64,000 nt of DNA from Prorocentrum cordatum (lineage: Eukaryota), in the NCBI GenBank assembly GCA_963575745.1, contig CAUYUJ010000068.1, positions 1-64,000 on the forward strand. Direction: 5' to 3'. The notes under the pieces were generated by a model that saw only the letters and a list, made by a program, of their open reading frames with translations, had not been told where the DNA came from and did no database searches. The first letter of the stretch is position 1. The number at the start of each line of letters is the position of its first letter. The position numbers and the translations under genes are program-made. This document shows, one piece after another, positions 32,561-45,330 of the stretch.

Positions 32561-35094
32561 GTCTCTTGAATCCCCACCCCCATCCGCATATTGAAACGAT
32601 GCCTCCCCCACTTCTCGGCTTCTCAGCCCCCTCTCACTGGATGCCTCCCAGATGGGGTACGAGTATACGGGGTCTGAGGATCGCGCCGCCTGGCCAATGC
32701 ACCGGAAATGCATCGGCGCAGTTGGCGTGGAGGCAATCCGAATCCGCATCGATAGAGGAAGAAACAACTTCGCAAACATAACCTTTCGGCTGTCCGCGCA
32801 CATTTCTTGGATCTGCGCTGGACCCCCTCCCTGGCGCGCGGAGCGCGCCGGGGGCGGGGCCGGAGGCGTCACCAGGGGGGACCAGCGCAGAGCCAAGAAA
32901 TCCGCGCGGACCGTCGAAAGGTCATGCTTGTGCTGCTTTTGCTTCTTCAAATCGAGCCGCATCGCCGTTGCATCGGCGATGCGGCGCGGTCCTCCGACCC
33001 CGCCTTCGGTGGCAAATCGTGGGAGCCTCCCATACCATCTCGTCGGCTCTTGCGAATCGACGCTAATCGACGCCGGTCGACGCTAATTGATGCTGAATCA
33101 GCGCTAATCGACGTTAAATCGACGCTATCTCATCTACTCCCAGACGCTGCTCGACGCTAGTCGACGCTGAAGACGAGGGTATACCAGGCTCCCTTGATTT
33201 GCGACCGAGTAGATCCAAGATGCGAAGAGGACCACTTTGACGAAACTTATGCTTCTAAGTGTGAATATCGCACTGCTGAGCAGCCTAATACACAATCTAG
33301 CCGGCACACAGTAAATGAAAACTAGTGTAAGACACCAGCATAGCGGCGCTGCGATGAAACCTGCGTAAGGGTTCTGCCGATGAGCGCGGCACGCTTCGAC
33401 TGCTCCCTCTTACAAACCCGCTTCGCTTCGATTTGAGCAGGGACCGACCGTCCCGGCATTCCGATAGGCCTACCACGAAATGTTCTTAGAACCCAGACAT
33501 GAAATCCCGGTGTGTGAAATCAACACGGCCTCGGCCAGAAATGTTCTGAGAGCACTTCGCGCAGACCACAAAAGGTGCTTGGAACATTCTTCGGTGGGCC
33601 TATCTCGGGAGCGGCCAAGAGGGGGGTGTCCAAGAGGGGGGGGTGCAAATCATGACCGGCGGCATGTGCGCGGCCCAGCGGGGGGGCAAGGGACGTAATG
33701 AAATAAGAAGAGGCGCCATGAGATCTGGGGAAATATCATGGCCCCCGCCATGATATCCCCCCCCCCCCTAGTCATCACCCCCCTCTTTTCCGCCCCCGAC
33801 TATCGGCGAGCCAGGACGCTTCGCCGCTACTTGACATCCGGCAGGCCCGGGCTCCCGGCAGGCCCGGCCCCCTCGGGCAAGCGCGCGGAGGTGGCCGCCG
33901 ATTACACGCCCTGCTCCCTCCCTCGGGCGCGGCGTGTGCGCTTGACGGGGAAACGGGAGCAGGAGGGGGCGGAAGAGGAGGAGGAGGAGGAGGAGGAGGA
34001 GGAGGAGGAGGAGGAGGATAATGAGGGGGAGGAGGATCATGAGGAGGAGAAGATAGGAGTCCCGGGGCTTGCTCCTCAGGGGACCACGCAGTGCGGGCTC
34101 GGGCACGTGGTGGCGGAAGAGGCGAGCGCGTCGTGGCGCCACCCGCCCTGGTCCGAAGCACCCTCGGGCTGGCTCCAAGAGGAGGCCGGCCCGGGATTGC
34201 AGCGAGGCCCAGGGACAGCCGGGCTGTGGAAGCCCTCATAGAGCCGCCTGGCCCGCCATGTCTGCGGGCGGCGTGGACCAGGAGGAGCAGAAGGAGGAAG
34301 ACGAGGAAGGGCAGGAGGAAGAGAATGAGGAGGAGGAGGAGAAGGAGGAGGAGGAAGAGGACGCGCCAGAGGAGGTGCAGAGGGAGAGTGCGCCAACGCG
34401 CACACCTCTCGGCGGCGCCATGCCGCTGGTGGTGGCGGGTGTGACTTTTCCCCAATCCTCGCATGCACGAGTAGCAGTGGTCACCGGCCCACTAGGAGAT
34501 AGCGCACATGCCGAGTTCAGCGGCTCGATCAGCAACCCCCGCTCCCCGGCACCCCCTAGCTTGGAGGCGGCCACGGGGTTGGAATTAGGCCTCGAAACAC
34601 TTGGTCAATACGTGGGGATCGGGCAAATCCGCTCAAAATCCGTCCCCGGATCCCTGCCAGGGTCCACCTGGTGTAATTTTTCAAATTCGTTTTTGACGGT
34701 CCTGGGGCCCAAAAACGACATCTGGGGACCGAAACAGGCAACAGACTTTCTCGAACCTCAAACCAGCCTGACGTGCCACCGTCAGGATACAGATTTTCCA
34801 GCCGCCAATAAGGGCAGGCGTCCCCGCCAGCGGAAAACATTGCCTTCCACAATTTGTCGTCCCCCAATTGCTGCTGGTCGGAACCAGAACTGGGCCACCT
34901 CAGACCCTCAGCCGGCTCCAACCCCCAGCCACATCCAAGCGGGGAAATGAAGGCGTCCAAGGACACACAAATAAACAAGCACAGAAATTCCAGGATCCCT
35001 CATGTTTCCCGTAAGTTTTGGAGCTTCGTCTTCCCCTCCGCCCCCCATTGTTCCCAGGCTTTCCTGGGGATCGTTTTTTTAAATTAAAAGCGAG

Positions 35095-35488
35095 CATACA
35101 ATACATACATATATCTATATAGAGGTATATGTATATGTCGATGCATGTATATGTGTATGTATATGTAAATGTATACATGTATATATGAAGGTATCGAGCT
35201 ACACATATATTTATATGTATATATATGTGTATATGTAGGTGTGTATGTCTATGTTTAGGTACATACAGCTATATGTGTGGGTATGCATGTCAGTATGTAT
35301 GTATGTATGATTGCATGCATGGATGTATGTATATATGTATGGATGCATGATTGCATGCATGCGTGCATGCATGTATGCATGTATGCATGTAGGTATGTAT
35401 GCATGTATGTATGTATGTACACATGTATGTACGTATGTACTACGTACGTACGCATGCATGACTGTATATATGCATGCATGCCTGTATC

Positions 35489-35522
<34 letters not shown>

Positions 35523-35720
35523 TGCATGCATGTATGTAGGTTTGTATATATGTATGTATGCACGCACGTAGATCTGTATACATGCATGTCTGTATGCACG
35601 TACATATGCATGTATGTGTGTACGTAATTATGTATGCTGTATGCTTGTGTGTATGCATGTATGTATGGACGATGCTTGTATGTGTGTGTATATATGTATA
35701 TATATATACACACGTATATA
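35095..35720. repeat. (TA)/(TATG)/(TGCA) microsatellite
   Basis: Directly visible. Confidence 0.95.
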
Positions 35721-36404
35721 AGGTGTTTCGTTCCCGCCGGAGACAAGCCGCGGCGGCGCGGGTCCGCCCAGTGCTTCCCCCGCAGCTGCACCGAGGAGTG
35801 CTGCTGCCCCAGCGCCTGCCCCAGCGCAGCGGGGCAAGGGTGCGCGCTCGGGCGGCGCGCCCGGCGCGCTGGGCCCCGCTCTCCAGCGCGTCGGAAGAGC
35901 TCGATGCTGAGGCTCCTCGTCGTTCGAGCTCGATCGAGCTCGCTCCTCCTCCTCCTCCTCCTCCTCCTCCTCCTCCTCCTCCTCCCTCCTCCCTCCTCCG
36001 TCCTCCCTCCTCCCTCCTCCCTCCTCCCTCCTCCACCCTCCTCCCTCCTCCTCCTCCTCCTCCTTCTCCTCCTCTCCTCCTCCTCCTCATTCTCCTCCTC
36101 CCCCTCCTCCCTCCTCCCTCCTCCTCCTCCTCCTCCTCCTCCTCCTCCTCCTCCTCTTCCTCCTCCCCCTCCTCCCCCTCCCCGTTCTTCTCCTCCTCCC
36201 CCTCCTCCTCCTCCTCCTCCTCCTCCTCCTCCTCCTCCTCCTCCTCCTCCTCCTCCTCCTCCTCCTAATCGGAGTCGCGGCCCCAGCTGGCGAAGCGAGT
36301 CGCATCGTGGAGGCGGCCCTGCGTGCGCCCCCTCCCCCTCCTCGCCGGGCCCAGAAGGGGCCGCCGGAAATTCAAGCAGCTCTCGGGACGCGGAGCCGGC
36401 CCCT

Positions 36405-36419
36405 GGTGGGGCCCAGAGC

Positions 36420-36463
<44 letters not shown>

Positions 36464-36735
36464 GAGATAACGCGGCGCTCGGGACGCGAGGCCGGCCCCT
36501 GCTGGGGCCCAGGGCCCGGGTCGGCACGTCCCCGAGGGGGCTGTACGGAACCAGAATTTGCAGATCGGATCTGTGGGGGAACAAGGGCTCCCAACTTCGC
36601 GCTTCGTGCTGCGCGAAGCGCGAATTGCGAATAACTTCGTGCTCTCGCGCCGCCTCCCAGGGGAGAAGAGGAGGATGAATGATCGGAGCCGAACCGCGAA
36701 GCGCGAATAATTTCGCGCCCTCGAGGGCGCCCTTG
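36405..36735 (+). repeat. Dispersed ~320-bp repeat with a close copy at ~57710-58030 and partial copies at ~47055-47200 and ~60122-60190
   Basis: (GTC)n-AGAGATAACGCGGCGCT...TTTGCAGATCGGATCTGTGGGGGAACAAGGGCTCCCAACTTCGCG...GGAGCCGAACCGCGAAGCGCGAA is shared. Confidence 0.9.
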
Positions 36736-36779
36736 GGGAAGGAGGGGGGCTCTCGCGCCGGCAGACGACGACGATGACA

Positions 36780-36816
<37 letters not shown>

Positions 36817-37994
36817 ACACCGTCGTCTTCGTCGCTTGTGCTTCCAAGCGCGAGGCAGTGAGGGGGGACGTTGCGGGGGAACCAGCTCAGGGGGGAAACA
36901 TCGGGCTTGAATCGGGGATCCATCGCCGACAGATCGTCGTCGACGGGCCCCCGACAGCGAGACCCGCACGGTCCTAGGCGGGTTGCACTGTCAGGCCCCT
37001 GTCGACAATCCGTGGGCGATTGGGGGTCGTTCTGTCCCTCCTGAGCCTATCCCCCCCGCCCCAGCCAATGTTACCCTCGAAGGGAGTTTTTTTTTTTTTT
37101 TTTTTTTTTTGTTTTTTTTTTTTTTTTTTTTTTTCTCCGGGGGGGCCGACCTCATTGTTCGCATGTCACCAAATCAGGGCTGCGCCGCAGCGTGAGACGG
37201 AGTAGCGAGAGGCGGCTGTCAACTCGCACGCGACCGTGGGCAGAGTATTCCTCCGAGCCTTGGAACAAAGAGGTACATGAAATAAGCGAAGCGGCAGGGG
37301 AAGAAGGCGATGGGGGTGGGGGAGAGGGGAGGTAGGGAGTTGTCGTCGCAAGCGCGATGCTGCCAGAGCCTGCCTGGGAAGCGGACGTGGCCCAGCCTAG
37401 ACTCGGTGGGGGCTTCCGGCCGCCCCGCAGTCTTCTTCGGGACCAGCTCTGCAGAGTGGAAGGGGAGGAAGGTGGGGAGGGAGCGGGGGGAAGGGAGGGA
37501 GGCATTCAGGGAGAGAGTAGGGGGGAGGGGGGACGCTGGTGGGGGCGCGCTTTTGCCCCGGACGGCGACACCACTCAAATCCAGCAGTGTGCACCAGCGG
37601 GGACTACAGACAGCAATATGCACGAGAGGCTCCTTGAGAAGGAACCGAGGGGGGAGGATGCGGGAGGGGCGAGGGAAAGAGACAGGAGGGAGGCGAGAAG
37701 CGGGGGGGCAGGACTAGGACTATAGGACGGTGGCCTGCCTGCGCAGAGGCAGGCCCCAGGGAGGGGACAGGAGGATGGAGGAAGAGGCGAGGAACGGAGG
37801 ACTGGTTGGGAGGAGGGACAGCGTGATGAGGAAAGGTGGAGGAGGAGCAGGAGGAGGAGGAGGAGGAGGAGGAGGAGCAGGAGGAGGAGAGGAGAAACAG
37901 GAGGAGGAGGAGGAGGAGGAGGAGGAGGAGAAGGAGGAGGAGGAGGGCACGGCCCCAGAGGACGACCGACGACGGCGGACGACTCGTCACCTCC

Positions 37995-40900
37995 TCAAGG
38001 CAGCAACAGTGGCAGGCGGGGCCCGCCTGCGGAGCTGGATGAGGCGGGCTTTGGCCAGCTTCTCCAAACGCTCTCGCGGTGCTCTGACACGCGGGGCCAC
38101 CACTTAGCTTCATGGTAGCACGTGTAGCACGAATCAATATACAAGGCGACACTGATGAGCTGGGAGAGACCAAGGGGGAGAAGCAGGAAGAGAGAGGCGC
38201 GAGCAGAGGCAGAAGCGGAGGCAAACGAGGACGGGAGCGAAGGGAGAAGACAGCACACGGGCGAGAAGCAGGGACAGACAATAATGTGAAGCATGCAGTC
38301 GGCAGAGGCCATGTCACAAAATCTACAATTGAGAGTAACACCTCGGAACCGACGCGAGGTGCACCAGGAATTACAAAACGTGCGTATTACATTCGCTACA
38401 ACACAGGCAGGAGCATGTTTGCAAAGACGCTGGAGAGCAATATACATAAGATCAAGTTGGGCAGGGGATGGAGGCGAGCCGAACTTCTTAAGCCTTACCT
38501 CAAGAATCGACCGCAACGAAATCGGGGACAGAGCGAGGAGGGCGGACTCAGTCACGGCTTGAATCTTGGGGGGGCCGAAGGGCGGGGCGGTCGGGATGGA
38601 CGTGAGCTTACGAAAGTTGGTAATCATGGCGCACACGACTGACGACTTCCACACCTTGGACCATTTCCATACTACGAGCATGTTGTCCGCATCACTCTCA
38701 TCTTCGAAGAGGGCCCTGGCGTCGTCGAAAGCGGGCGACATGATCGCCGCTCTGTACATGGCTGCTCGACTTGCCGCCTCGAGAGAACGAGCCTGAGTCG
38801 GGAAACCCCAATCACGGAGCTGCTGCAGGAGGTTCTGGGGGAGACCATTGCTCGGGGCGTTGGTCACGCACTGCTGAGCTTTACGTGCAGCCTGAAGAGC
38901 CTGCTTAGTGGGGGGGTAGAACTGAGCAACACGCATCAGTACCGAGAAAGCCAGGAGGCTCACCATGAGAAGGGATTTGCATAACCCAGCCCCGGCATGT
39001 TTGATTTCATGAGCCCGCGAGATACACTTCATAGCAGGAGGACCCCAACTGGCGTTTCGACCATCTTCCCCAATATATACTCCAAGATACTTGCCTGCGC
39101 GCTGGAAAGTAAGGCACTCGGCGGTCCTCACACCAGGGGCGACCATTCTCTCACAGCACTGTTCCCGTGTCAGGTCGCCAAGCGGAACAATGACCGACTT
39201 CTCAAGGTGAATGTGAAGACCTGCAGCTGCACCGGCAATCTTTCATGCAGGTAAGAGACCACGGAAGGCGGAGAAGACATCGGCAGCGGCAACGCCGATG
39301 TCGTCCGCGAAAGCTGCTAAGCATGAGAGACGCCTGGGAATGCGGGCGAGCATGAAACGGATAAGCGGGTCAAGGGCGAGGCAGAAGATGGTACCTGAGA
39401 GCGGGCGTCCTTGCTTGATCCCACGAGAGGCTACGAAGGAGGCCTTGCGGATCCCATTGAAGTTGATGTTGATTTTAACGTCGTTGTATAACGCGTGCAC
39501 GACATTGATGACGAAGGAAGGAATACCCATGGCCCGAAGGACCCAGAAGATAAAACTGTGCAATAAACTAGGAAAAGCAGCCCGAACATCGTAATAAATG
39601 GTCCCCGCGTTTTTGGTGGCCGTACTGGGCAAACCAAGACACTGCCCTACTCTCGAGGTTGATAATATTCTCGTTCATGTAACGGCCAGCGATAAAACCT
39701 CGCTGATTGCCAAGCACAGTTTGGGCAGCGACCCCAGAGAAGGACCTGTTGAGGGCGACGGAGACCAGCTTGTTATCAGAGTTACCAAGGGTAATGGGGC
39801 GAGTAACCTCGGGCTTACGAATGATGCGCTGGGGGGTGTCATCTGGGTCGCTGCCCTTGGCGAGAGAGACGGCCATGCCATGGTTAAAACCGACGGGGGC
39901 GCTTCCATTCGCGAACATCTCGGAATAAAGCCCATAAAGAGTGTCGACAACTGCGGGCCCTCCCTTGGGATAACAACTGCACGGAATGCTGTCGGGGCCA
40001 GGGGCAGAGTCCGAAACCTTGGAAAGGAGGCAGGCAAACTCCTGAGGATCAAGCTTCCAGAGGATTCCAGGAGGGCAAGGTAGAACGAAATCCCTAAGCA
40101 GTTGTCGGTCCTCTATGGAGCAGTCGACACACGAATGCACTTGGCCCCAGTAGGCTGCGAGCTCGGTGGCGACGCACTCAGGATCTGTGATGGCCTTGCC
40201 AGTCGGATCCGAGACGCCAGATAGAGAAATGCGCCGATGCTTCCTTCCCCACGCTGTTTGGTATTTGTAGAGCTTGATTTTGACGCCACGCTTGCGGGAG
40301 TCAGAAACGGCTTGCTGCCCGACTTCGTTGATTTGCTGAGAGATGAGCTCGTGCTTCATTTCGTTCAGGTGGGAATGGAAGCTCCGAACGTCTAACCACA
40401 TGGCAGACTCTGGGTCGAGGAAGCGGCCCAGCACGGGGTAGGCCAGGACAGCCTTGCGCACCAGCCAGAGCTGCCCTCGCAGCGTGCCTCGAAGCGCTGA
40501 AAGAGACCATGCAATTTTCTCAGCCAGCGACTTGTTGGTCTGCTCAGCGCTGAAGTTAATGACATCCTTGCACGCCTGCACAAGGATGTCCTTGGTCTGC
40601 GAGTGCTTTTCGAACGGATCGTCCGAGAGCGGTCCCACCAAGGAAAGTAAATTACTGACAGCGACAGGAAACTGCGAATGTTTGGTGACCCACCTTGGAA
40701 CACGAAAACCACAGCTGGGCCCAGGGCTGAGCGTAAGACAAACGGGGGCATGGTCCGATAGTTTGCCGACCTTCGAGGCGGGCTCCAGGGTGAGGGCCTT
40801 GGGGTGGTATTCAAGTATGGTAGCGCTGAACATGTTTGTGTAACTACGATCGATACGGCTGTAACTTTGCACGACTTGAACTCCTTCCTCCTCCTGAGTC

Positions 40901-41711
40901 ACCCTGTGCGCGAAGGCGGGTTGCTCGACCTCGCACAGATCAGCGAAGCGCTGCTCGAAGAAAGCGGCGGCGTCGGCACTGGAGTAATGCACCGCGCCCG
41001 GAACATGGAAGCTGCCCTCTCCCGCCGCAGGAAAGTTGAAATCGCCTGAGACGAAGCCCGTAGCCACGGAGGGGGGAGAAGTGCGCGTCTGACAAGCATA
41101 AGCTGATGTTTCTGGTCATGAAGAGCGCGACAGGGATCGAGATGGATGTTGAGAAGCTGCAGCGCCCCACGGCTGCCCCCCAGCGCGAGAGACTGAATTC
41201 GGCCCTGTACGAGGACGGAGTAGCGACAGCATTGGAAATGACTTCGAAGATCAGGGTGCAGAAAAATGAGAGCACCTCCCGCAGACCTGCCATCGAAGAT
41301 GGACCCAATACCCCAAACGTCATGGACTTCAGAACACAGCCTCTGGAGGTCGAACTTGGTGCCTCTAGCTTCCTGAATGCAAACCACCTGGTACTTCTGG
41401 ACATAGGATACTAGGCGAGACATTTTGCTTTTGACGATGCCCAGAATCGAGGTGATGCCTCCAAAAAGCGATCGAGCGTGCCACGAAACGATACTCAAGT
41501 GAGACTCCCAGATAAACGGCGAGTGAGTCCAATCCCCAGGAAACGGAGAGAAGCAAGACGGCCCAAAGGGCGACGGTAAACAGGACCCACTCGACGAGGT
41601 CGAACCAGTAGAAGACCCAGACGAGCCAGAAGAGGAGGACGAGGCGGTCGAAGAGCTCAGACATCTAGTAGAGGAAGGCGACTGAGGGTAGGGAACACGC
41701 ATCCCAGCCAC
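37995..41711 (-). pseudogene. LINE ORF2 (endonuclease-reverse transcriptase), broken into four ORF segments
   Basis: APE: SIVSWHARSL, VCIQEARG, SGDFNF, RIDRSY, SDHAPV. RT: APGPDSIP, RPITLGN, QRGFIAGR, YDVRAAFPS, GIKQGRPLSG, AFADD, KYLG. C-terminal CRFC..D...HIIVC. Confidence 0.92.
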
Positions 41712-41747
41712 GATGGCTGGATCAGACCTGGTCGGCGAGGCACTCTT

Positions 41748-42686
41748 TCAAGACGAGCGCGCGGCTGTGATCATTGAGCTGGCCTGGTCAGCCGAGATCT
41801 GAAAGGTGGCGATGCCGACGGGGTGAGGAGAGATCTCGAACTGGCCGACGTCCTGCTCAGAAACTGAGAAGAGCTCGTGAACAACGTCGCTGACAGCGCA
41901 GAAGAGGATGCCCTTGAAACCGTTGACCCCGAGTTTGTGCGTGGCGTCGTTCCACTGACCAGTCTGCCGAAGGTGAGCATTGACCAGCTGCCAGATCTTT
42001 CCGAGGAACTTATTCTTGTGGCGAACGGAGGTCGGGGCGTCGCGGCGGCAGCGAAGCTGGACCTGTGTGTTGGAGTGGGAGTCGTTCCACAAAATGCCCT
42101 GGGCACGAGCGTGGCCGATGAAGGAGGGCGCGTCAACGTTGCTGGCGAACTGGATTGACTAGCTCTTGGCGGGATTGTGGCCCTTGATGACGATGCCTGC
42201 CTGCCTGATGTGCGTAGGCAAGCTCTGCACGAGGAGGTCGCCGTGCTGCTCAAGAGAGGCCTTGAGCATGGGTCTGGTGAAGCCGCCGACCCAGACTTTG
42301 AGCGGGTCGAACTCATCATCGTGTGATCGGCTAGTGCTGCTGCCCGCAGTAGACGGCGGCGTACCAGTACGGCGTCGCGAGGTGGGAGGACCAGAGCTGT
42401 CAGAACTGCCACTGGAGCGCGACGACTGAGACGACTCGATGGCGGCCATGCGCTGCTCCATCTGGATACGCAGAGTGGCGACGGCGGCAGCGTCCGAGGA
42501 GGTGGCGATGCGGGGCTCAATCGTGTTGATCCTCTGCGTGAGCGTAGCCATGTTCCTGTCGTGCGACATGATGCTCTCTTTGAGGGAGTCGAGCGCGGAC
42601 ATAGAGGACTCGACGGTGGCTAAACGCTGGTTGGCACCCCCTAGCTGCTGCAGGATCTGCTTGATGCCTTCCTCGACCGACGACAT
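41748..42686 (-). pseudogene. LINE ORF1 (coiled-coil-like N-terminus, possible RRM-like region), one in-frame stop at 42159
   Basis: ATG at 42686 (MSSVEEGIKQILQQL...), heptad-like stretch, then KVWVGGF. The same frame continues in track ORF 41748..42092, directly upstream of ORF2. Confidence 0.7.
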
Positions 42687-42816
42687 GGCGAGAACTGGGA
42701 GAGTGTCTGGAGACTGGGAGAAACAAAGACGGGAACTGGGAGAGTGACCGCCCAGGCACGACACCTGGGATGGCTCCGAACGGAGCTGCCCACTCAAATC
42801 GCGGATTGCCCTGCAA

Positions 42817-42853
42817 CTTGAGCCAAAATGGCTTGAGCCAAAATGGCTACGGA
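42817..42853 (-). other. Dinoflagellate spliced leader (22 nt, 42853-42832) plus tandem 15-nt relict SL (42831-42817)
   Basis: Minus strand reads TCCGTAGCCATTTTGGCTCAAG CCATTTTGGCTCAAG, an exact match to the DinoSL consensus DCCGTAGCCATTTTGGCTCAAG. Confidence 0.97.
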
Positions 42854-43759
42854 AGGAGGAGGAGGAGGAGGAGGAGGAGGAGGAGGAGGAGGAGGAGGAG
42901 GAGGAGGAGGAGGAGTATGTAGACGATGCGAAATGACACGCGTGCACCATGGCATAGTATGTCCAGGCCGAGGGGGAGGACCCGCTGGAGCCTCCAAGGG
43001 CCCCCGAGGACACTGCAGAACACCCTGATGGTGTTTTGCCTCTTTGGGTCGCGGGAGATGCCTCTGGTGATCTTGCCCTCCTCCTCCTTCTCCTTCTTTT
43101 TCTCCTCTTCCTCTTCCTTTTTCTCCTCTTCCTCCTCTTCCTCCTCTTCCTCCTTCGTTCTCCATCATCACTCCTCCTCCCTCCTCCCCCTCCTCCTCCT
43201 CCTCTCCTCCTCCTTTTCCTTTTCCTTCTCCTCCTCCTCCTCCTCCTTTTCCTCCTCCTCTTTCCTCCTCCTCTTGCTCCTCCTCCTCCCATTATGCTCC
43301 CCCTTTACCCCCTACTCAGCCTCCCCCCTCCTCATCATGCTCATCCCTTTACTCCACCTCCACCTCCTCCTCCTCCTCCTCACTCCCATTCATCTTCGTT
43401 CGTCCTGATACAGGTGGTGCCGCAGAGAGGTGGGAAGGAGGAGGAGGCGGGATGAGGGATAGCTGAGGGAGGAACTAGGGAGGGAATAGAAAGGACAAAG
43501 AGGAGGGAGGAGAAGGAGAAAGAGAGGGAGGGTGGAGTGATGCGGTGCTTGAGGTGGAGGATGTTGGAGGAAGGAAGTAAGGAGGAGGGAGAAGAAGGGG
43601 AGGAAGGGAGGGCGGGATAATCCCACCAGCCCTTTGGGCGTAGGTGGTCTAGGGAGGCCCCTGTACCAACCCCCTTCTTCCCCTTCGGGGAGGGTTTTAC
43701 CCCTCCCCAAACCCCCTCCCCTGGACCTGGAGGCGGCGAGGCGTTGGAGCGTCTAGGAT

Positions 43760-44110
43760 GGACCAAGACGGCTCCAAGAGGGACTCAGAGAGCCCAAGAT
43801 GACCTCCCAAATGGATCAACATAGTCTTAGATGCGGCAAGATGGCTCCCAAGATGCTCCAAGAGACCCCACGACCGCCCCAAGATGGCTCCAAGCGGCCA
43901 ACGAGCTCCCCAAGGAGGCCCCGAACAAGCCCAAATCCTGCTAAAACCTAAAAATGTGGTTTGATTTCTCGCCTTTTCGCTTCCCGTGGCCATCCGAGGC
44001 CTCAAGAAGCCCCCAAGATGGCCCACGAGGGCCCCAAGAGAGGCTCAAGAGAGCCCCAAGACGGCCCCAAGAGCGCCCCAAGAGGCGATTTCGTGGGCTC
44101 CCGGAGACTC
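43760..44110. repeat. CCCCAAGA-rich degenerate repeat family; similar tracts at ~3700-4020 and ~63420-63720
   Basis: Recurrent GGCCCCAAGA / CCCAAGATGGC motifs. Confidence 0.7.
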
Positions 44111-45330
44111 CGAGAGGCATCTTTGAAGCTTCTGGCTATTCTGTTCGCCGTCGTCTTCCTCTTCCTCATCCACGTATTCCTCCTCCCCTCTCCTCCCTCC
44201 TCCTCCTCCCTCCTCCTCCTCCTCCTCCTCCTCCGCCTCCTCCTCCTCCTCCTCCCTGCTACTATACTCATCCCTCCTCCCTTCAGCTCGTCCTGCGCCG
44301 TCTTCTTTCCTTCCTCCTCCTCCTCCTCCTCCTTCTCCTCCTCCTCCTCCTCCTCCTCCTCCTCCTCCTCCTCCTCCTCCTCTCCTCCCTTTGTTCTTCG
44401 GCATGCTCTCCCGCTGGCCTGATCACCTCAACTCCCCTGGGCATCGTTGCTGCATGGGCTGGTGGGGATACGCGACGCGTCAAACATTGAACGAGGAATC
44501 ACATCATTGAACCGGGAATCACTGGAGGAGGAGAGAGGGCTGGCGGAGGGAGGAGGAAGGCGTCCCAGGCACGGCGCGCCACAACTCCGACGCGTCCCCC
44601 AGAGAGAGAGAGAGAGAGAGAGGAAGAGAGAGAGAGAGAGCGAGAAAGCAAGAGCGAGAGCAAGCGCAAGAGCGAGCAGGAGACACCGACGCGGCGACGC
44701 CGTGCAGAAGACCGACCAGCACGACCGGAGAACGAGCGGCCCCCACGCGCGGGGCCGCTCGGGGGCAGAAGAGGCCCGGGCGGCCCCGAGCCTCCGGGGG
44801 CCCCGCGGGCGGGAACTGCCTTGCTGCAGCAGGGCAGCGGTGCGCGCCCGCTGGCGCAGACTGCAGCCGTGGGTGGAGACATACAGCCGGCCCCCATGTC
44901 ACAGGGATGCGGCGACGAGAAGGACGCCCAGGGCCTCGGAGGGCCCTTGCGGAGCTTGTCGGGCGGGGCGGGGCCGGCGAAGAGGTGGCCAAGGGTGGCC
45001 AAGTGTGGGCCGAAGGTGCCCTTCTCGTTGCACCGGCCCTGCAGACGTGCTGCAGCAAATTTCTGCGTGGATGTCTGCCCGAAGCGGCGAGCGACAAACG
45101 GAATGAAATTCGCGTGGATGTTTTTTGGTCCTCACTCCTGGCCAAAGAAATCCGGAACGACATTCTCCAGGACACTCCGGGCCCATCCTATCGTCTTCCG
45201 AACGAAATCCGCTCTGCGATATTGGCGCCATGACACGTAGGAGAATCGCCCATCCTTACCAGGCGGGTTCACTGTGCTCTCCATGCTTCGTTTTCATCCA
45301 GGTTGGAGGGTCGAACTTCGGGTTCGGATT

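What the first reader, a model, noticed from the sequence alone, without database searches (positions are those of the whole stretch)
42817..42915. LINE whose 5' end is a full spliced leader plus relict SL: a retrotransposon that may be capped by host trans-splicing
Seen: the minus strand reads (TCC)n-TTCCGTAGCCATTTTGGCTCAAG-CCATTTTGGCTCAAG, then a 130-nt UTR and the ORF1 ATG. Established: DinoSL is trans-spliced onto dinoflagellate mRNAs, and relict SLs lacking the first 7 nt arise when a retrocopied SL is spliced again at its internal AG. Inference: this LINE lineage went through at least two cycles of SL addition and full-length reverse transcription. The element may need no internal promoter, because host trans-splicing could cut a capped unit-length RNA out of read-through transcription, and each insertion carries its own acceptor AG.
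Basis: partly seen in the sequence, partly recalled or inferred. Interest (0 to 1): 0.92.

Follow-up and report, generated by a model that had tools for sequence, protein, structure and literature searches.

The report
Dinoflagellate LINE starting with spliced leader
A jumping gene (LINE) in a dinoflagellate genome begins exactly with the host's 22-base mRNA leader plus a worn second copy, so its RNA was tagged by the host and copied back into DNA at least twice; five unrelated LINEs from environmental DNA show the same start.

Summary
On the minus strand, 42853-42817 reads a perfect 22-nt DinoSL followed by a perfect 15-nt relict. A (CCT)20 repeat lies directly upstream. A 130-nt UTR and the ORF1 ATG (42686) follow.

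Downstream is a real non-LTR retrotransposon: ORF1, then an APE endonuclease, a reverse transcriptase and a Cys/His motif. This copy is decayed, with two premature stops and two homopolymer frameshifts. Diverged copies in a public DNA run carry a different base or run length at three of these four sites. One 95%-identical contig runs from ORF1 through the UTR and relict into the SL.

It is not an SL-RNA gene, because no GT donor follows the SL.

I scanned metagenome contigs for 'SL end + relict'. Of 23 assessable genomic-type loci, 5 are LINEs with unalignable UTRs that start the same way. One is a complete, intact element with an A16 tail.

The [quoted passage not shown] reading is therefore well supported and appears general. 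Promoter independence and read-through transcription remain untested. I found no paper stating that LINEs carry DinoSL. I rate it a new variant of a known kind, of moderate to high interest.

The parts
42854..42915 (-). (CCT)n microsatellite directly abutting the 5' end of the SL. It is either the target-site remnant or the 5' flank. On a read-through transcript it would form a long pyrimidine tract just before the CCGTAG acceptor.
   Evidence: TRF reports 20.7 copies at 100% match; sequence.
42832..42853 (-). Complete 22-nt dinoflagellate spliced leader (D = T), encoded in the DNA. It marks the exact 5' end of the retrocopied LINE RNA.
   Evidence: It matches the DinoSL consensus DCCGTAGCCATTTTGGCTCAAG quoted in passages of PMC5585692 and PMC7245778.
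42817..42831 (-). Relict SL. It is the SL without its first 7 nt, as left when a new SL is spliced at the internal AG of an older DNA-encoded SL.
42687..42816 (-). 130-nt 5' UTR. It cannot be aligned with the UTRs of the five other SL-LINEs.
   Evidence: No Rfam family reached its gathering score here, ribozymes included.
41748..42686 (-). ORF1, 312 codons. It has an N-terminal long helix (coiled-coil-like) and then a domain of uncertain fold. A premature TAG lies at 42159-42161. The natural stop is TGA at 41748-41750.
   Evidence: AlphaFold2 gives helix 2-88 at pLDDT about 70 and the rest below 50. It is 88% identical to a protein in a eukaryote protein set and 94% identical, over a short part, to a Prorocentrum cordatum protein. 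It is distantly similar to the ORF1 of L021 (E 2.7e-7).
37995..41747 (-). ORF2. The APE-type endonuclease spans about 41504-40645, the reverse transcriptase about 40245-39285, and a C-terminal Cys/His motif lies near 38300. There are frameshifts in homopolymer runs near 41070 and 39610 and a premature TGA at 39243-39245. The final stop is TGA at 37995-37997.
   Evidence: RVT_1 E 1e-10. Own EEP profile E 3.6e-20 and 1.6e-17. 22 distant full-length homologues all carry PF00078, and 12 of them also PF03372. Weak match to human L1 ORF2p, E 0.03-0.09. C-terminus aligned to P0003. Codons.
37834..37946 (-). Imperfect (CCT)n-type microsatellite about 45 nt behind the ORF2 stop, in the same orientation as the 5' flank repeat. 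It is the candidate 3' tail or the other half of the target microsatellite.
   Evidence: TRF reports 38 copies at 86% match; sequence.
37087..37134 (-). A48 run on the minus strand, 860 nt behind the ORF2 stop. It is either an alternative 3' end of the retrocopy or, more likely, the tail of a separate short retrocopy at about 37136-37250.
   Evidence: One contig of run X2 joins an SL to the position matching 37250, and four X2 contigs match 37161-37250 (table 5, records 11-14).

Best explanation
This is a decayed copy of an autonomous APE-type LINE in a Prorocentrum-like dinoflagellate. Its 5' terminus is the host spliced leader.

Proposed mechanism:
1. The LINE transcript, like other dinoflagellate mRNAs, received the capped 22-nt DinoSL by trans-splicing.
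2. Its own reverse transcriptase copied the RNA to the very 5' end, so the new DNA copy began with a full SL.
3. That SL-bearing copy was transcribed from wherever it had landed. It was trans-spliced again at the AG inside the old SL (CCGTAG|CC), which left the 15-nt relict behind a new SL.
4. It was then copied full-length a second time, giving the present 'SL + relict' start.

The SL therefore acts as a portable 5' module. It supplies the cap and defines the 5' end of unit-length RNA. Every daughter copy carries ready-made AG acceptors: the internal AG, and the AG that ends each SL unit.

What is shown: the anatomy, the LINE identity, the multi-copy family, and the same start in five other LINE lineages.

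What is inferred: the order of events, which follows from the established relict-SL model; where transcription starts; and any functional dependence on the SL.
For: - **SL and relict.** Both are perfect, at 0 expected by chance. The UTR is 130 nt and the ATG is at 42686.
- **LINE identity.** RVT_1 E 1e-10. The APE domain was found with a profile I built from 10 sequences, at E 3.6e-20 and 1.6e-17, and is split exactly at one frameshift. 22 of 22 distant homologues carry PF00078, and 12 of 22 also PF03372.
- **Family.** Contigs of DNA run X1 at about 83-95% identity lie on parts of 39005-42842 (7 listed pieces, with gaps between some). A 380-nt contig (18 differences) covers 42463-42842, that is ORF1, the UTR, the relict and 11 nt of the full SL. 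Where X1 contigs cover them, the premature TGA (39243) ends in G, giving TGG, in 3 of 3 contigs. A 1-nt deletion at 39610 appears in 3 contigs, and an extra base at 41070 in 1 contig. These lie at the two frameshift sites (tables 3, 4 and 8).
- **Not an SL gene.** The SL is followed by CC and the relict by TT, not by the GT donor (PMC12584245 passage).
- **Generality.** The metagenome scan returned 119 loci with 'SL end + relict'. Of these, 23 have more than 40 nt of non-SL upstream flank and at least 1000 nt downstream. Five of the 23 are LINEs:
  - L065: RVT_1 5e-16 and Exo_endo_phos_2 2.5e-6, both ORFs intact, A16 tail.
  - L071: tblastn to 10 ORF2 proteins, best E 1.3e-52.
  - L040: profile E 9e-11.
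  - L061: profile E 1.8e-5, and ORF1 like that of L071 at E 3.7e-7.
  - L021: profile E 0.0026, and ORF1 like the window's at E 2.7e-7.
  
  Their UTRs (124-225 nt for four of them; L040's was not measured) do not align with one another. Only the SL units do.
Against: - This copy cannot be active. It has two premature stops and two frameshifts, although the frameshifts sit in homopolymer runs and could be assembly errors.
- There is no transcript evidence.
- The one other family member seen with the SL is a contig that ends inside the SL. Its flank is unknown, so it could be the same locus in a diverged strain rather than a paralogue.
- The environmental loci were fetched with a pattern that requires SL plus relict. 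They cannot show what share of LINE copies carry an SL, or whether promoter-bearing master copies exist.
- Only 1-2 relicts are present in six elements. If every generation used the internal AG, longer relict arrays would be expected. So either SL-bearing copies rarely propagate, or splicing mostly uses a downstream AG and replaces the old SL.
- L021 and L061 are called LINEs on weak scores.
Confidence: 0.76

Rival explanations
1. Master-copy model. A few promoter-bearing master elements make the RNA. It is trans-spliced at an acceptor in their 5' region, and SL-bearing copies are dead-on-arrival by-products. The relict records a rare accidental re-expression and has no role in the life cycle.
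For: Only 1-2 relicts are seen in six elements. The window copy is decayed. My sample of other LINEs was selected for the presence of a relict.
Against: A relict requires that an SL-bearing copy was transcribed, spliced and retrotransposed full-length. This happened independently in at least six lineages with unrelated UTRs. L065 is an SL-bearing copy with both ORFs intact.
Confidence: 0.17
2. Single cycle only. The mature SL-capped LINE mRNA was trans-spliced a second time at the RNA level, so 'SL + relict' arose without a DNA stage and was reverse-transcribed once.
For: Nothing in the DNA distinguishes one DNA passage from two.
Against: Only 7 nt lie upstream of the internal AG on a mature mRNA. 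From general knowledge of splicing, that leaves no room for a branch point and pyrimidine tract. The literature read here treats relicts as DNA-encoded (passages of PMC6050394 and PMC7245778).
Confidence: 0.04
3. The SL belongs to something else. It could be an adjacent host retrogene (with ORF1 a host gene), a chimeric template-switch product, an SL-RNA gene, or a LINE that targets SL-RNA genes as SLACS, CZAR or NeSL-1 do.
For: ORF1 has no Pfam family, and its fold could not be modelled beyond a long helix.
Against: X1 contigs lie on most of the stretch from the ORF2 start to the SL (records 5-8, with one 39-nt gap between listed pieces). ORF1 is followed in frame by the APE-RT ORF2 here and in L065. 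Related ORF1s in L021, L061 and L071 are also followed by an endonuclease start. No GT donor follows the SL. The flanks are microsatellite or unique DNA, not SL-gene arrays. The endonuclease is APE-type.
Confidence: 0.03

Closest known systems
DinoSL-relict retrogenes of dinoflagellates (Slamovits and Keeling 2008, recalled; Song et al. 2017, PMC5585692, passages read; PMC12014239, passages read)
   Same: Both have a DNA-encoded full SL followed by relict units lacking the first 7 nt, directly upstream of a short UTR and an ORF. Both are read in the same way, as repeated mRNA recycling.
   Different: Here the recycled mRNA is that of an autonomous LINE, the likely source of the reverse transcriptase, and not a host gene. 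Song et al. only note that the GO term 'RNA-dependent DNA replication' is enriched among retrogenes. The papers read favour LTR elements or leave the agent open, except PMC10235124, which argues for LINE-mediated retroposition of viral genes.
L1Tc/ingi LINEs of trypanosomatids with the Pr77 internal promoter and HDV-like ribozyme (PMC1874656, PMC3185411, PMC3383444; abstracts seen in the listing)
   Same: Both are LINEs in an organism whose mRNAs are all SL trans-spliced, and both must obtain a defined 5' end from co-transcripts.
   Different: According to those abstracts, L1Tc uses its own 77-nt promoter and ribozyme and makes unspliced transcripts. The elements here carry the host SL itself, and no ribozyme family was detected.
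SL-gene-specific LINEs: SLACS, CZAR and CRE in trypanosomatids, NeSL-1 in nematodes
   Same: A LINE is physically linked to spliced-leader sequence.
   Different: Those elements insert site-specifically into SL-RNA genes and use a restriction-like endonuclease. Here the SL is a copied mRNA 5' end, the flanks differ at every locus, and the endonuclease is APE-type.
L1-type LINEs with ORF1 (coiled coil plus RNA-binding domain) and ORF2 (APE-RT-Cys motif)
   Same: The gene order is the same, and both have APE and RT domains and a C-terminal Cys/His motif. There is a weak sequence match to human L1 ORF2p.
   Different: The clade was not determined. There is no long promoter-bearing 5' UTR. The window copy shows no clear poly(A) tail directly behind ORF2, but a (CCT)n repeat instead.

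Membership tests
DNA-encoded DinoSL + relict (retrocopy signature) | 22-nt DCCGTAGCCATTTTGGCTCAAG present in genomic DNA with a non-SL upstream flank | tested here: met
   There is a perfect match at 42853-42832, and the upstream flank is (CCT)n followed by unique DNA.
DNA-encoded DinoSL + relict (retrocopy signature) | Relict unit lacking the first 7 nt directly behind the full SL | tested here: met
   CCATTTTGGCTCAAG lies at 42831-42817.
DNA-encoded DinoSL + relict (retrocopy signature) | Transcripts from the locus carry a new SL joined at the internal AG | not testable with these tools
   No run listed as RNA holds the stretch, and only assembled contigs could be laid.
Non-LTR retrotransposon (APE-type LINE) | Reverse transcriptase domain | tested here: met
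   RVT_1 E 1e-10, 42.1 bits against a cut-off of 29.6. All 22 homologues carry PF00078.
Non-LTR retrotransposon (APE-type LINE) | Apurinic-endonuclease-like (EEP) domain N-terminal to the RT | tested here: met
   Pfam itself gave no hit. A profile built from L071 plus 9 database ORF2 N-termini hit both halves, at E 3.6e-20 and 1.6e-17.
Non-LTR retrotransposon (APE-type LINE) | ORF1 with coiled coil and nucleic-acid-binding domain | tested here: inconclusive
   The AlphaFold2 model has mean pLDDT 39.6, and only helix 2-88 is near 70. Only weak coiled-coil Pfam hits were found. The Atlas search of the L065 ORF1 gave leads below 0.9 only.
Non-LTR retrotransposon (APE-type LINE) | 3' tail (poly(A) or simple repeat) and target-site duplication | tested here: inconclusive
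   A (CCT)n repeat lies about 45 nt behind the ORF2 stop and an A48 run lies 860 nt behind it. No unambiguous duplication was found. L065 has an A16 tail.
Non-LTR retrotransposon (APE-type LINE) | Dispersed multi-copy family | tested here: met
   293 contigs of DNA run X1 were laid: 64 at 99% identity or more, 46 at 95-99%, 70 at 90-95% and 113 below 90%. There is no second copy in the window.
SL-RNA gene | SL exon followed by a GT splice donor and intron | tested here: not met
   The SL is followed by CCATT and the relict by TTGCAG. The gene form SL-GTACAC... is quoted in PMC12584245.
SL-gene-targeting LINEs (SLACS/CZAR/NeSL) | Insertion inside an SL-RNA gene, with a restriction-like endonuclease (features recalled) | tested here: not met
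   The flanks are microsatellite or unique DNA and differ between the six elements. The endonuclease is APE-type.
Ribozyme-processed LINE 5' ends (L1Tc, R2 type) | HDV-like ribozyme at the 5' end | tested here: not met
   An Rfam E-value scan of 35000-45000 listed only low-complexity miRNA-type matches and a few other chance matches, all below gathering score. A divergent ribozyme is not excluded.

The most novel reading that the evidence does not exclude
Dinoflagellate LINEs as a class have given up internal promoters. The DNA-encoded spliced leader at their 5' end is their expression module. It is an acceptor that lets host trans-splicing cut a capped, unit-length mRNA out of any passing transcript. 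These SL-LINEs would then be the long-sought engine that integrates SL-tagged host mRNAs, so that retrogenes and LINEs share one integration signature, including 5' junctions at microsatellites.
Probability: 0.3. Interest if true: 0.85.

Novelty: new variant of a known kind. Interest (0 to 1): 0.64.

Why it matters
Dinoflagellate genomes carry thousands of SL-tagged retrogenes. The papers I read say the reverse-transcribing agent is unknown or point to LTR elements (passages in PMC5585692, PMC6050394, PMC12014239 and PMC3942190), although PMC10235124 proposes LINE-mediated retroposition for endogenous viral genes. If LINEs themselves bear the same SL-plus-relict signature, then LINE RNAs are trans-spliced, are copied to their very 5' end, and are re-expressed after insertion. 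That makes LINEs the obvious candidates for the retroposition machinery.

It also offers a third solution to the LINE '5'-end problem', alongside internal promoters and 5' ribozymes: borrowing the host's leader. The idea is directly testable with SL-primed long-read cDNA and a genome-wide census of 5' junctions.

Tried and rejected
- **Whole genome.** None is held for this window, so the proposed census of all copies could not be run.
- **Copies in the window.** A self-BLAST of 37000-42870 against the 64-kb window found no second copy.
- **Earlier scan notes.** There was nothing on this genome or sequence. The word searches gave only unrelated items.
- **Sequencing runs.** No RNA holder was listed. 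One run guessed to be RNA (X2) has only a few contigs, of low identity where listed, on the LINE body, so nothing can be said about expression.
- **Depth.** It is a per-contig value, so I do not use it as a copy number. Summed contig depth is higher over 38142-41867 than over 37107-38141. That fits a family 3' end near the ORF2 stop, but it is only a hint.
- **ORF1 in metagenome contigs.** 326 pattern matches were found, but none was confirmed.
- **ORF1 protein searches.** They gave 2 hits and 1 hit.
- **Pfam on the endonuclease pieces.** No hit even at E 10.
- **PDB sequence search.** Only weak L1 ORF2p matches, E 0.03-0.09.
- **ORF1 structure.** The model was too poor (pLDDT 39.6) to justify a fold search.
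- **Atlas.** Leads only, below 0.9.
- **L029.** It looks like a sixth environmental SL-LINE by eye (endonuclease-like motifs), but no search supported it, so it is not counted.
- **L005.** It has an RNase H/RVT_3 plus DnaJ ORF behind an SL and relict. It was not pursued.
- **Literature.** Five searches, plus passages of 12 papers, found no statement that LINEs carry DinoSL. Supplements were not opened, so the retrogene tables of Song et al. 2017 may list such genes.

Full report
**Observation.** On the minus strand the window reads (CCT)n, then TCCGTAGCCATTTTGGCTCAAG (42853-42832), then CCATTTTGGCTCAAG (42831-42817), then a 130-nt stretch, then an ATG at 42686. The first unit is a complete 22-nt dinoflagellate spliced leader. 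The second is the SL without its first 7 nt. The consensus DCCGTAGCCATTTTGGCTCAAG is quoted in passages of PMC5585692 and PMC7245778. The 15-nt core occurs only at these two places in 64 kb, and 0 of 100 shuffles gave 2 matches. The upstream repeat is 20.7 perfect copies of a 3-nt unit at 42854-42915.

**What lies downstream.** Stop-to-stop frames on the minus strand give three parts.
- ORF1 runs from 42686 to 41748. It has a premature TAG at 42159-42161, and its natural stop is TGA at 41748-41750.
- A second reading frame continues in the same phase directly after that stop.
- That second frame is broken by two frameshifts and one TGA (39243-39245), and it ends at TGA 37995-37997.

One piece carries RVT_1 (E 1e-10, 42.1 bits against a cut-off of 29.6; 1 of 6 pieces scanned). 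Pfam did not recognise an endonuclease, even at E 10. I therefore built a profile from the N-terminal domains of L071 and nine database ORF2 proteins. It matched 40899-41747 (E 3.6e-20, profile positions 10-128) and 39568-41115 (E 1.6e-17, positions 149-302). This is one APE-type domain split at the first frameshift.

A word-indexed search for longer relatives returned 22 proteins at 22-32% identity. All 22 carry PF00078, and 12 also carry PF03372. The middle piece weakly matches human L1 ORF2p (E 0.03-0.09). The C-terminus aligns with homologue P0003 through a Cys/His motif and ends at about the same place.

ORF1 has no Pfam family. A five-sequence AlphaFold2 model was poor (mean pLDDT 39.6) apart from a long N-terminal helix, residues 2-88. 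I did not pursue its fold further.

The element is therefore an ORF1 + APE-RT non-LTR retrotransposon of about 4.9 kb, running from 42853 to about 37995. This copy is decayed. Both frameshifts lie in homopolymer runs (C6 near 41070, A5/G5 near 39610), so they could also be assembly errors.

**Organism and family.** ORF1 is 88% identical over 71% of its length to a protein in a eukaryote protein set, filed under a green alga. It is 94% identical over 18% of its length to an unnamed Prorocentrum cordatum protein. The window is probably from that species or a close relative, but this is a lead only.

No whole genome is held, and the window has no second copy. I laid contigs of four public runs on 36900-43100 at 80% likeness or more. 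From DNA run X1, 293 contigs were laid: 64 at 99% or more, 46 at 95-99%, 70 at 90-95% and 113 below 90%.

Eight pieces are listed for X1. One is identical to the window but lies behind ORF2, at 37589-37780. The other seven, at about 83-95% identity, lie on parts of 39005-42842. Among them, a 380-nt contig with 18 differences covers 42463-42842. That span includes ORF1, the whole UTR, the relict and 11 nt of the full SL, where the contig ends.

Where X1 contigs cover the defects of the window copy, they differ from it at three sites:
- The base at 39243 gives TGG instead of TGA in 3 of 3 contigs.
- One base is missing at 39610 in 3 contigs.
- One extra base is present at 41070 in 1 contig.

So the window copy belongs to a multi-copy family, and other members lack these three defects. 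At least one other sequence has the same SL-UTR-ORF1 junction. The caveat is that this contig's upstream flank is not seen, so a diverged allele is not excluded.

**Not an SL gene or a neighbour's SL.** SL-RNA genes continue with a GT donor after the 22 nt (sequence quoted in PMC12584245). Here the units are followed by CC and TT. No Rfam family reached its gathering score between 35000 and 45000, ribozymes included. The listed X1 contigs cover most of the stretch from the ORF2 start through ORF1 to the SL, with one 39-nt gap between pieces (records 5-8).

**Is it general?** A protein-based scan of metagenome contigs with ORF1 found nothing. The permitted second scan used the 25-nt 'SL end + relict' string.
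- In 67 of 122 matches, the match lies within 40 nt of a contig end, like a transcript 5' end.
- 23 loci have more than 40 nt of non-SL upstream flank and at least 1000 nt downstream.

Five of those 23 are LINEs:

| Locus | Evidence for LINE identity | 5' start and other features |
|---|---|---|
| L065 | RVT_1 5e-16 and Exo_endo_phos_2 2.5e-6 | Whole element in a 4889-nt contig: 53-nt flank, a degenerate SL plus 2 relicts, 225-nt UTR, intact ORF1 and 1049-aa ORF2, about 70-nt 3' UTR, A16 tail, 3' flank |
| L071 | tblastn to 10 ORF2 proteins, best E 1.3e-52 | Full SL (D = A) plus 1 relict |
| L040 | Profile E 9e-11 | (TA)n, then a full SL plus 2 relicts |
| L061 | Profile E 1.8e-5; ORF1 like that of L071, E 3.7e-7 | (ACAT)n, then a full SL plus 1 relict |
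| L021 | Profile E 0.0026, weak; ORF1 like the window's, E 2.7e-7 | (CCT)n, then an SL with a 2-nt deletion plus 1 relict |

The other ORFs scanned were ordinary genes (phosphate transporter, MCM, TCP-1, PGK, 14-3-3 and others) or had no family; one (L005) carries RNase H and DnaJ domains. The UTRs of the window and four of these LINEs (L040 was not in that alignment) do not align with one another. Only the SL units do. The sample was selected for having a relict, so it shows recurrence, not frequency.

**Mechanism.** The accepted reading of relicts is that an SL-tagged mRNA is reverse-transcribed and integrated, then transcribed again and trans-spliced at the AG inside the old SL (passages of PMC6050394 and PMC7245778). 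Applied here, the LINE lineage passed at least twice through 'trans-splicing, then full-length reverse transcription'. The intermediate, an SL-bearing copy, must have been expressed from its new site.

The stronger claim is that the element needs no promoter, with host trans-splicing carving a capped unit-length RNA out of read-through transcripts. That claim is plausible but untested.

One point argues against an obligatory use of the internal AG. Only 1-2 relicts are seen in all six elements. Either SL-bearing copies seldom propagate (the master-copy rival, 0.17), or splicing mostly uses the AG that ends each SL unit, which would replace the old leader rather than add to it. In the window copy, the (CCT)20 tract placed directly before CCGTAG would give a read-through RNA a long pyrimidine tract ahead of the acceptor. 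This is an observation on the sequence, and its effect is inferred.

**3' end.** ORF2 stops at 37995. An imperfect (CCT)n-type repeat (37834-37946) follows about 45 nt later, in the same orientation as the 5' flank repeat. An A48 run lies 860 nt further on (37087-37134). I think the element is embedded in, or tailed by, the (CCT)n repeat, and that the A-run belongs to a separate short retrocopy. One X2 contig joins an SL to the position matching 37250, just behind an AG. This remains unresolved.

**Comparison with what is known.**
- SL-relict retrogenes are well known in dinoflagellates. Song et al. 2017 noted that 'RNA-dependent DNA replication' is enriched among them and took this as a sign of active retrotransposons.
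- Several papers state that the agent of retroposition is unknown or favour Ty1/copia elements.
- One paper argues for LINE-mediated integration of viral genes (PMC10235124).
- In five full-text searches and the passages read, I found no statement that LINE elements themselves begin with DinoSL. Supplements were not opened.
- In trypanosomatids, the other classic all-trans-spliced system, L1Tc instead uses an internal promoter plus an HDV-like ribozyme and makes unspliced RNA (abstracts listed).
- SL-gene-targeting LINEs (SLACS, CZAR, NeSL; recalled from memory) are a different thing.

**Verdict.** The finding generalises to at least six LINE lineages. I rate it a new variant of a known kind, with interest 0.64.

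Noticed in passing
window 42854-42915; L001, L021, L040, L061, L079 (directly upstream of the SL): The 5' junction of SL-retrocopies often abuts a microsatellite: (CCT)n, (TA)n, (ACAT)n, (CAA)n or (ACACC)n. This holds for 5 of the 23 assessable metagenome loci (3 LINEs and 2 other retrocopies). Perfect microsatellites of 15 nt or more make up only 0.8% of the bases in those loci (binomial p about 1e-6). The window copy shows the same thing. This suggests either a target preference for simple repeats or repeat formation at the 5' junction, shared by LINEs and retrogenes.
   Followed up: partly
window 37834-37946 and 42854-42915: The LINE is flanked on both sides by (CCT)n-type repeats in the same orientation. 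It may have been inserted into one microsatellite, or the family may have a simple-repeat tail. (TCC/AGG)n arrays are common in this region, with five arrays between 36001 and 44388, and 6.4% of the window is perfect microsatellite.
   Followed up: partly
window about 37136-37250 (minus) plus the A-run at 37087-37134: This is a short unit followed by a 48-nt A-run. Four contigs of run X2 match 37161-37250 at about 80-86% identity. One of them joins an SL exactly at the position matching 37250, which in the window is preceded by AG (table 5, records 11-14). It may be a short poly(A)-tailed retrocopy or a SINE-like family.
   Followed up: no
window 36994-37029: A motif of about 35 nt piles up contigs from all four runs laid, with loose ends on both sides (tables 2 and 7). 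It appears to be a highly repeated short element of unknown nature. No Rfam family matched it.
   Followed up: no
window 41748-41750; L065 3370-3372: In both the window LINE and the unrelated L065 LINE, ORF2 follows ORF1 in the same reading frame, separated by a single stop codon. This arrangement would suit stop-codon read-through or re-initiation.
   Followed up: no
L005 3918-9323: An SL plus relict is followed about 900 nt later by a 655-aa ORF with DnaJ and RNase H/RVT_3 domains, and then by an 833-aa ORF without any family. It may be another kind of retroelement or a host gene retrocopy.
   Followed up: no
protein P0001: A protein 88% identical to this LINE's ORF1 is filed in a eukaryote protein set under a green alga (Pyramimonas sp.). 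This is probably cross-contamination from a Prorocentrum-like organism. If that set derives from a transcriptome, it would hint that the family is transcribed.
   Followed up: no
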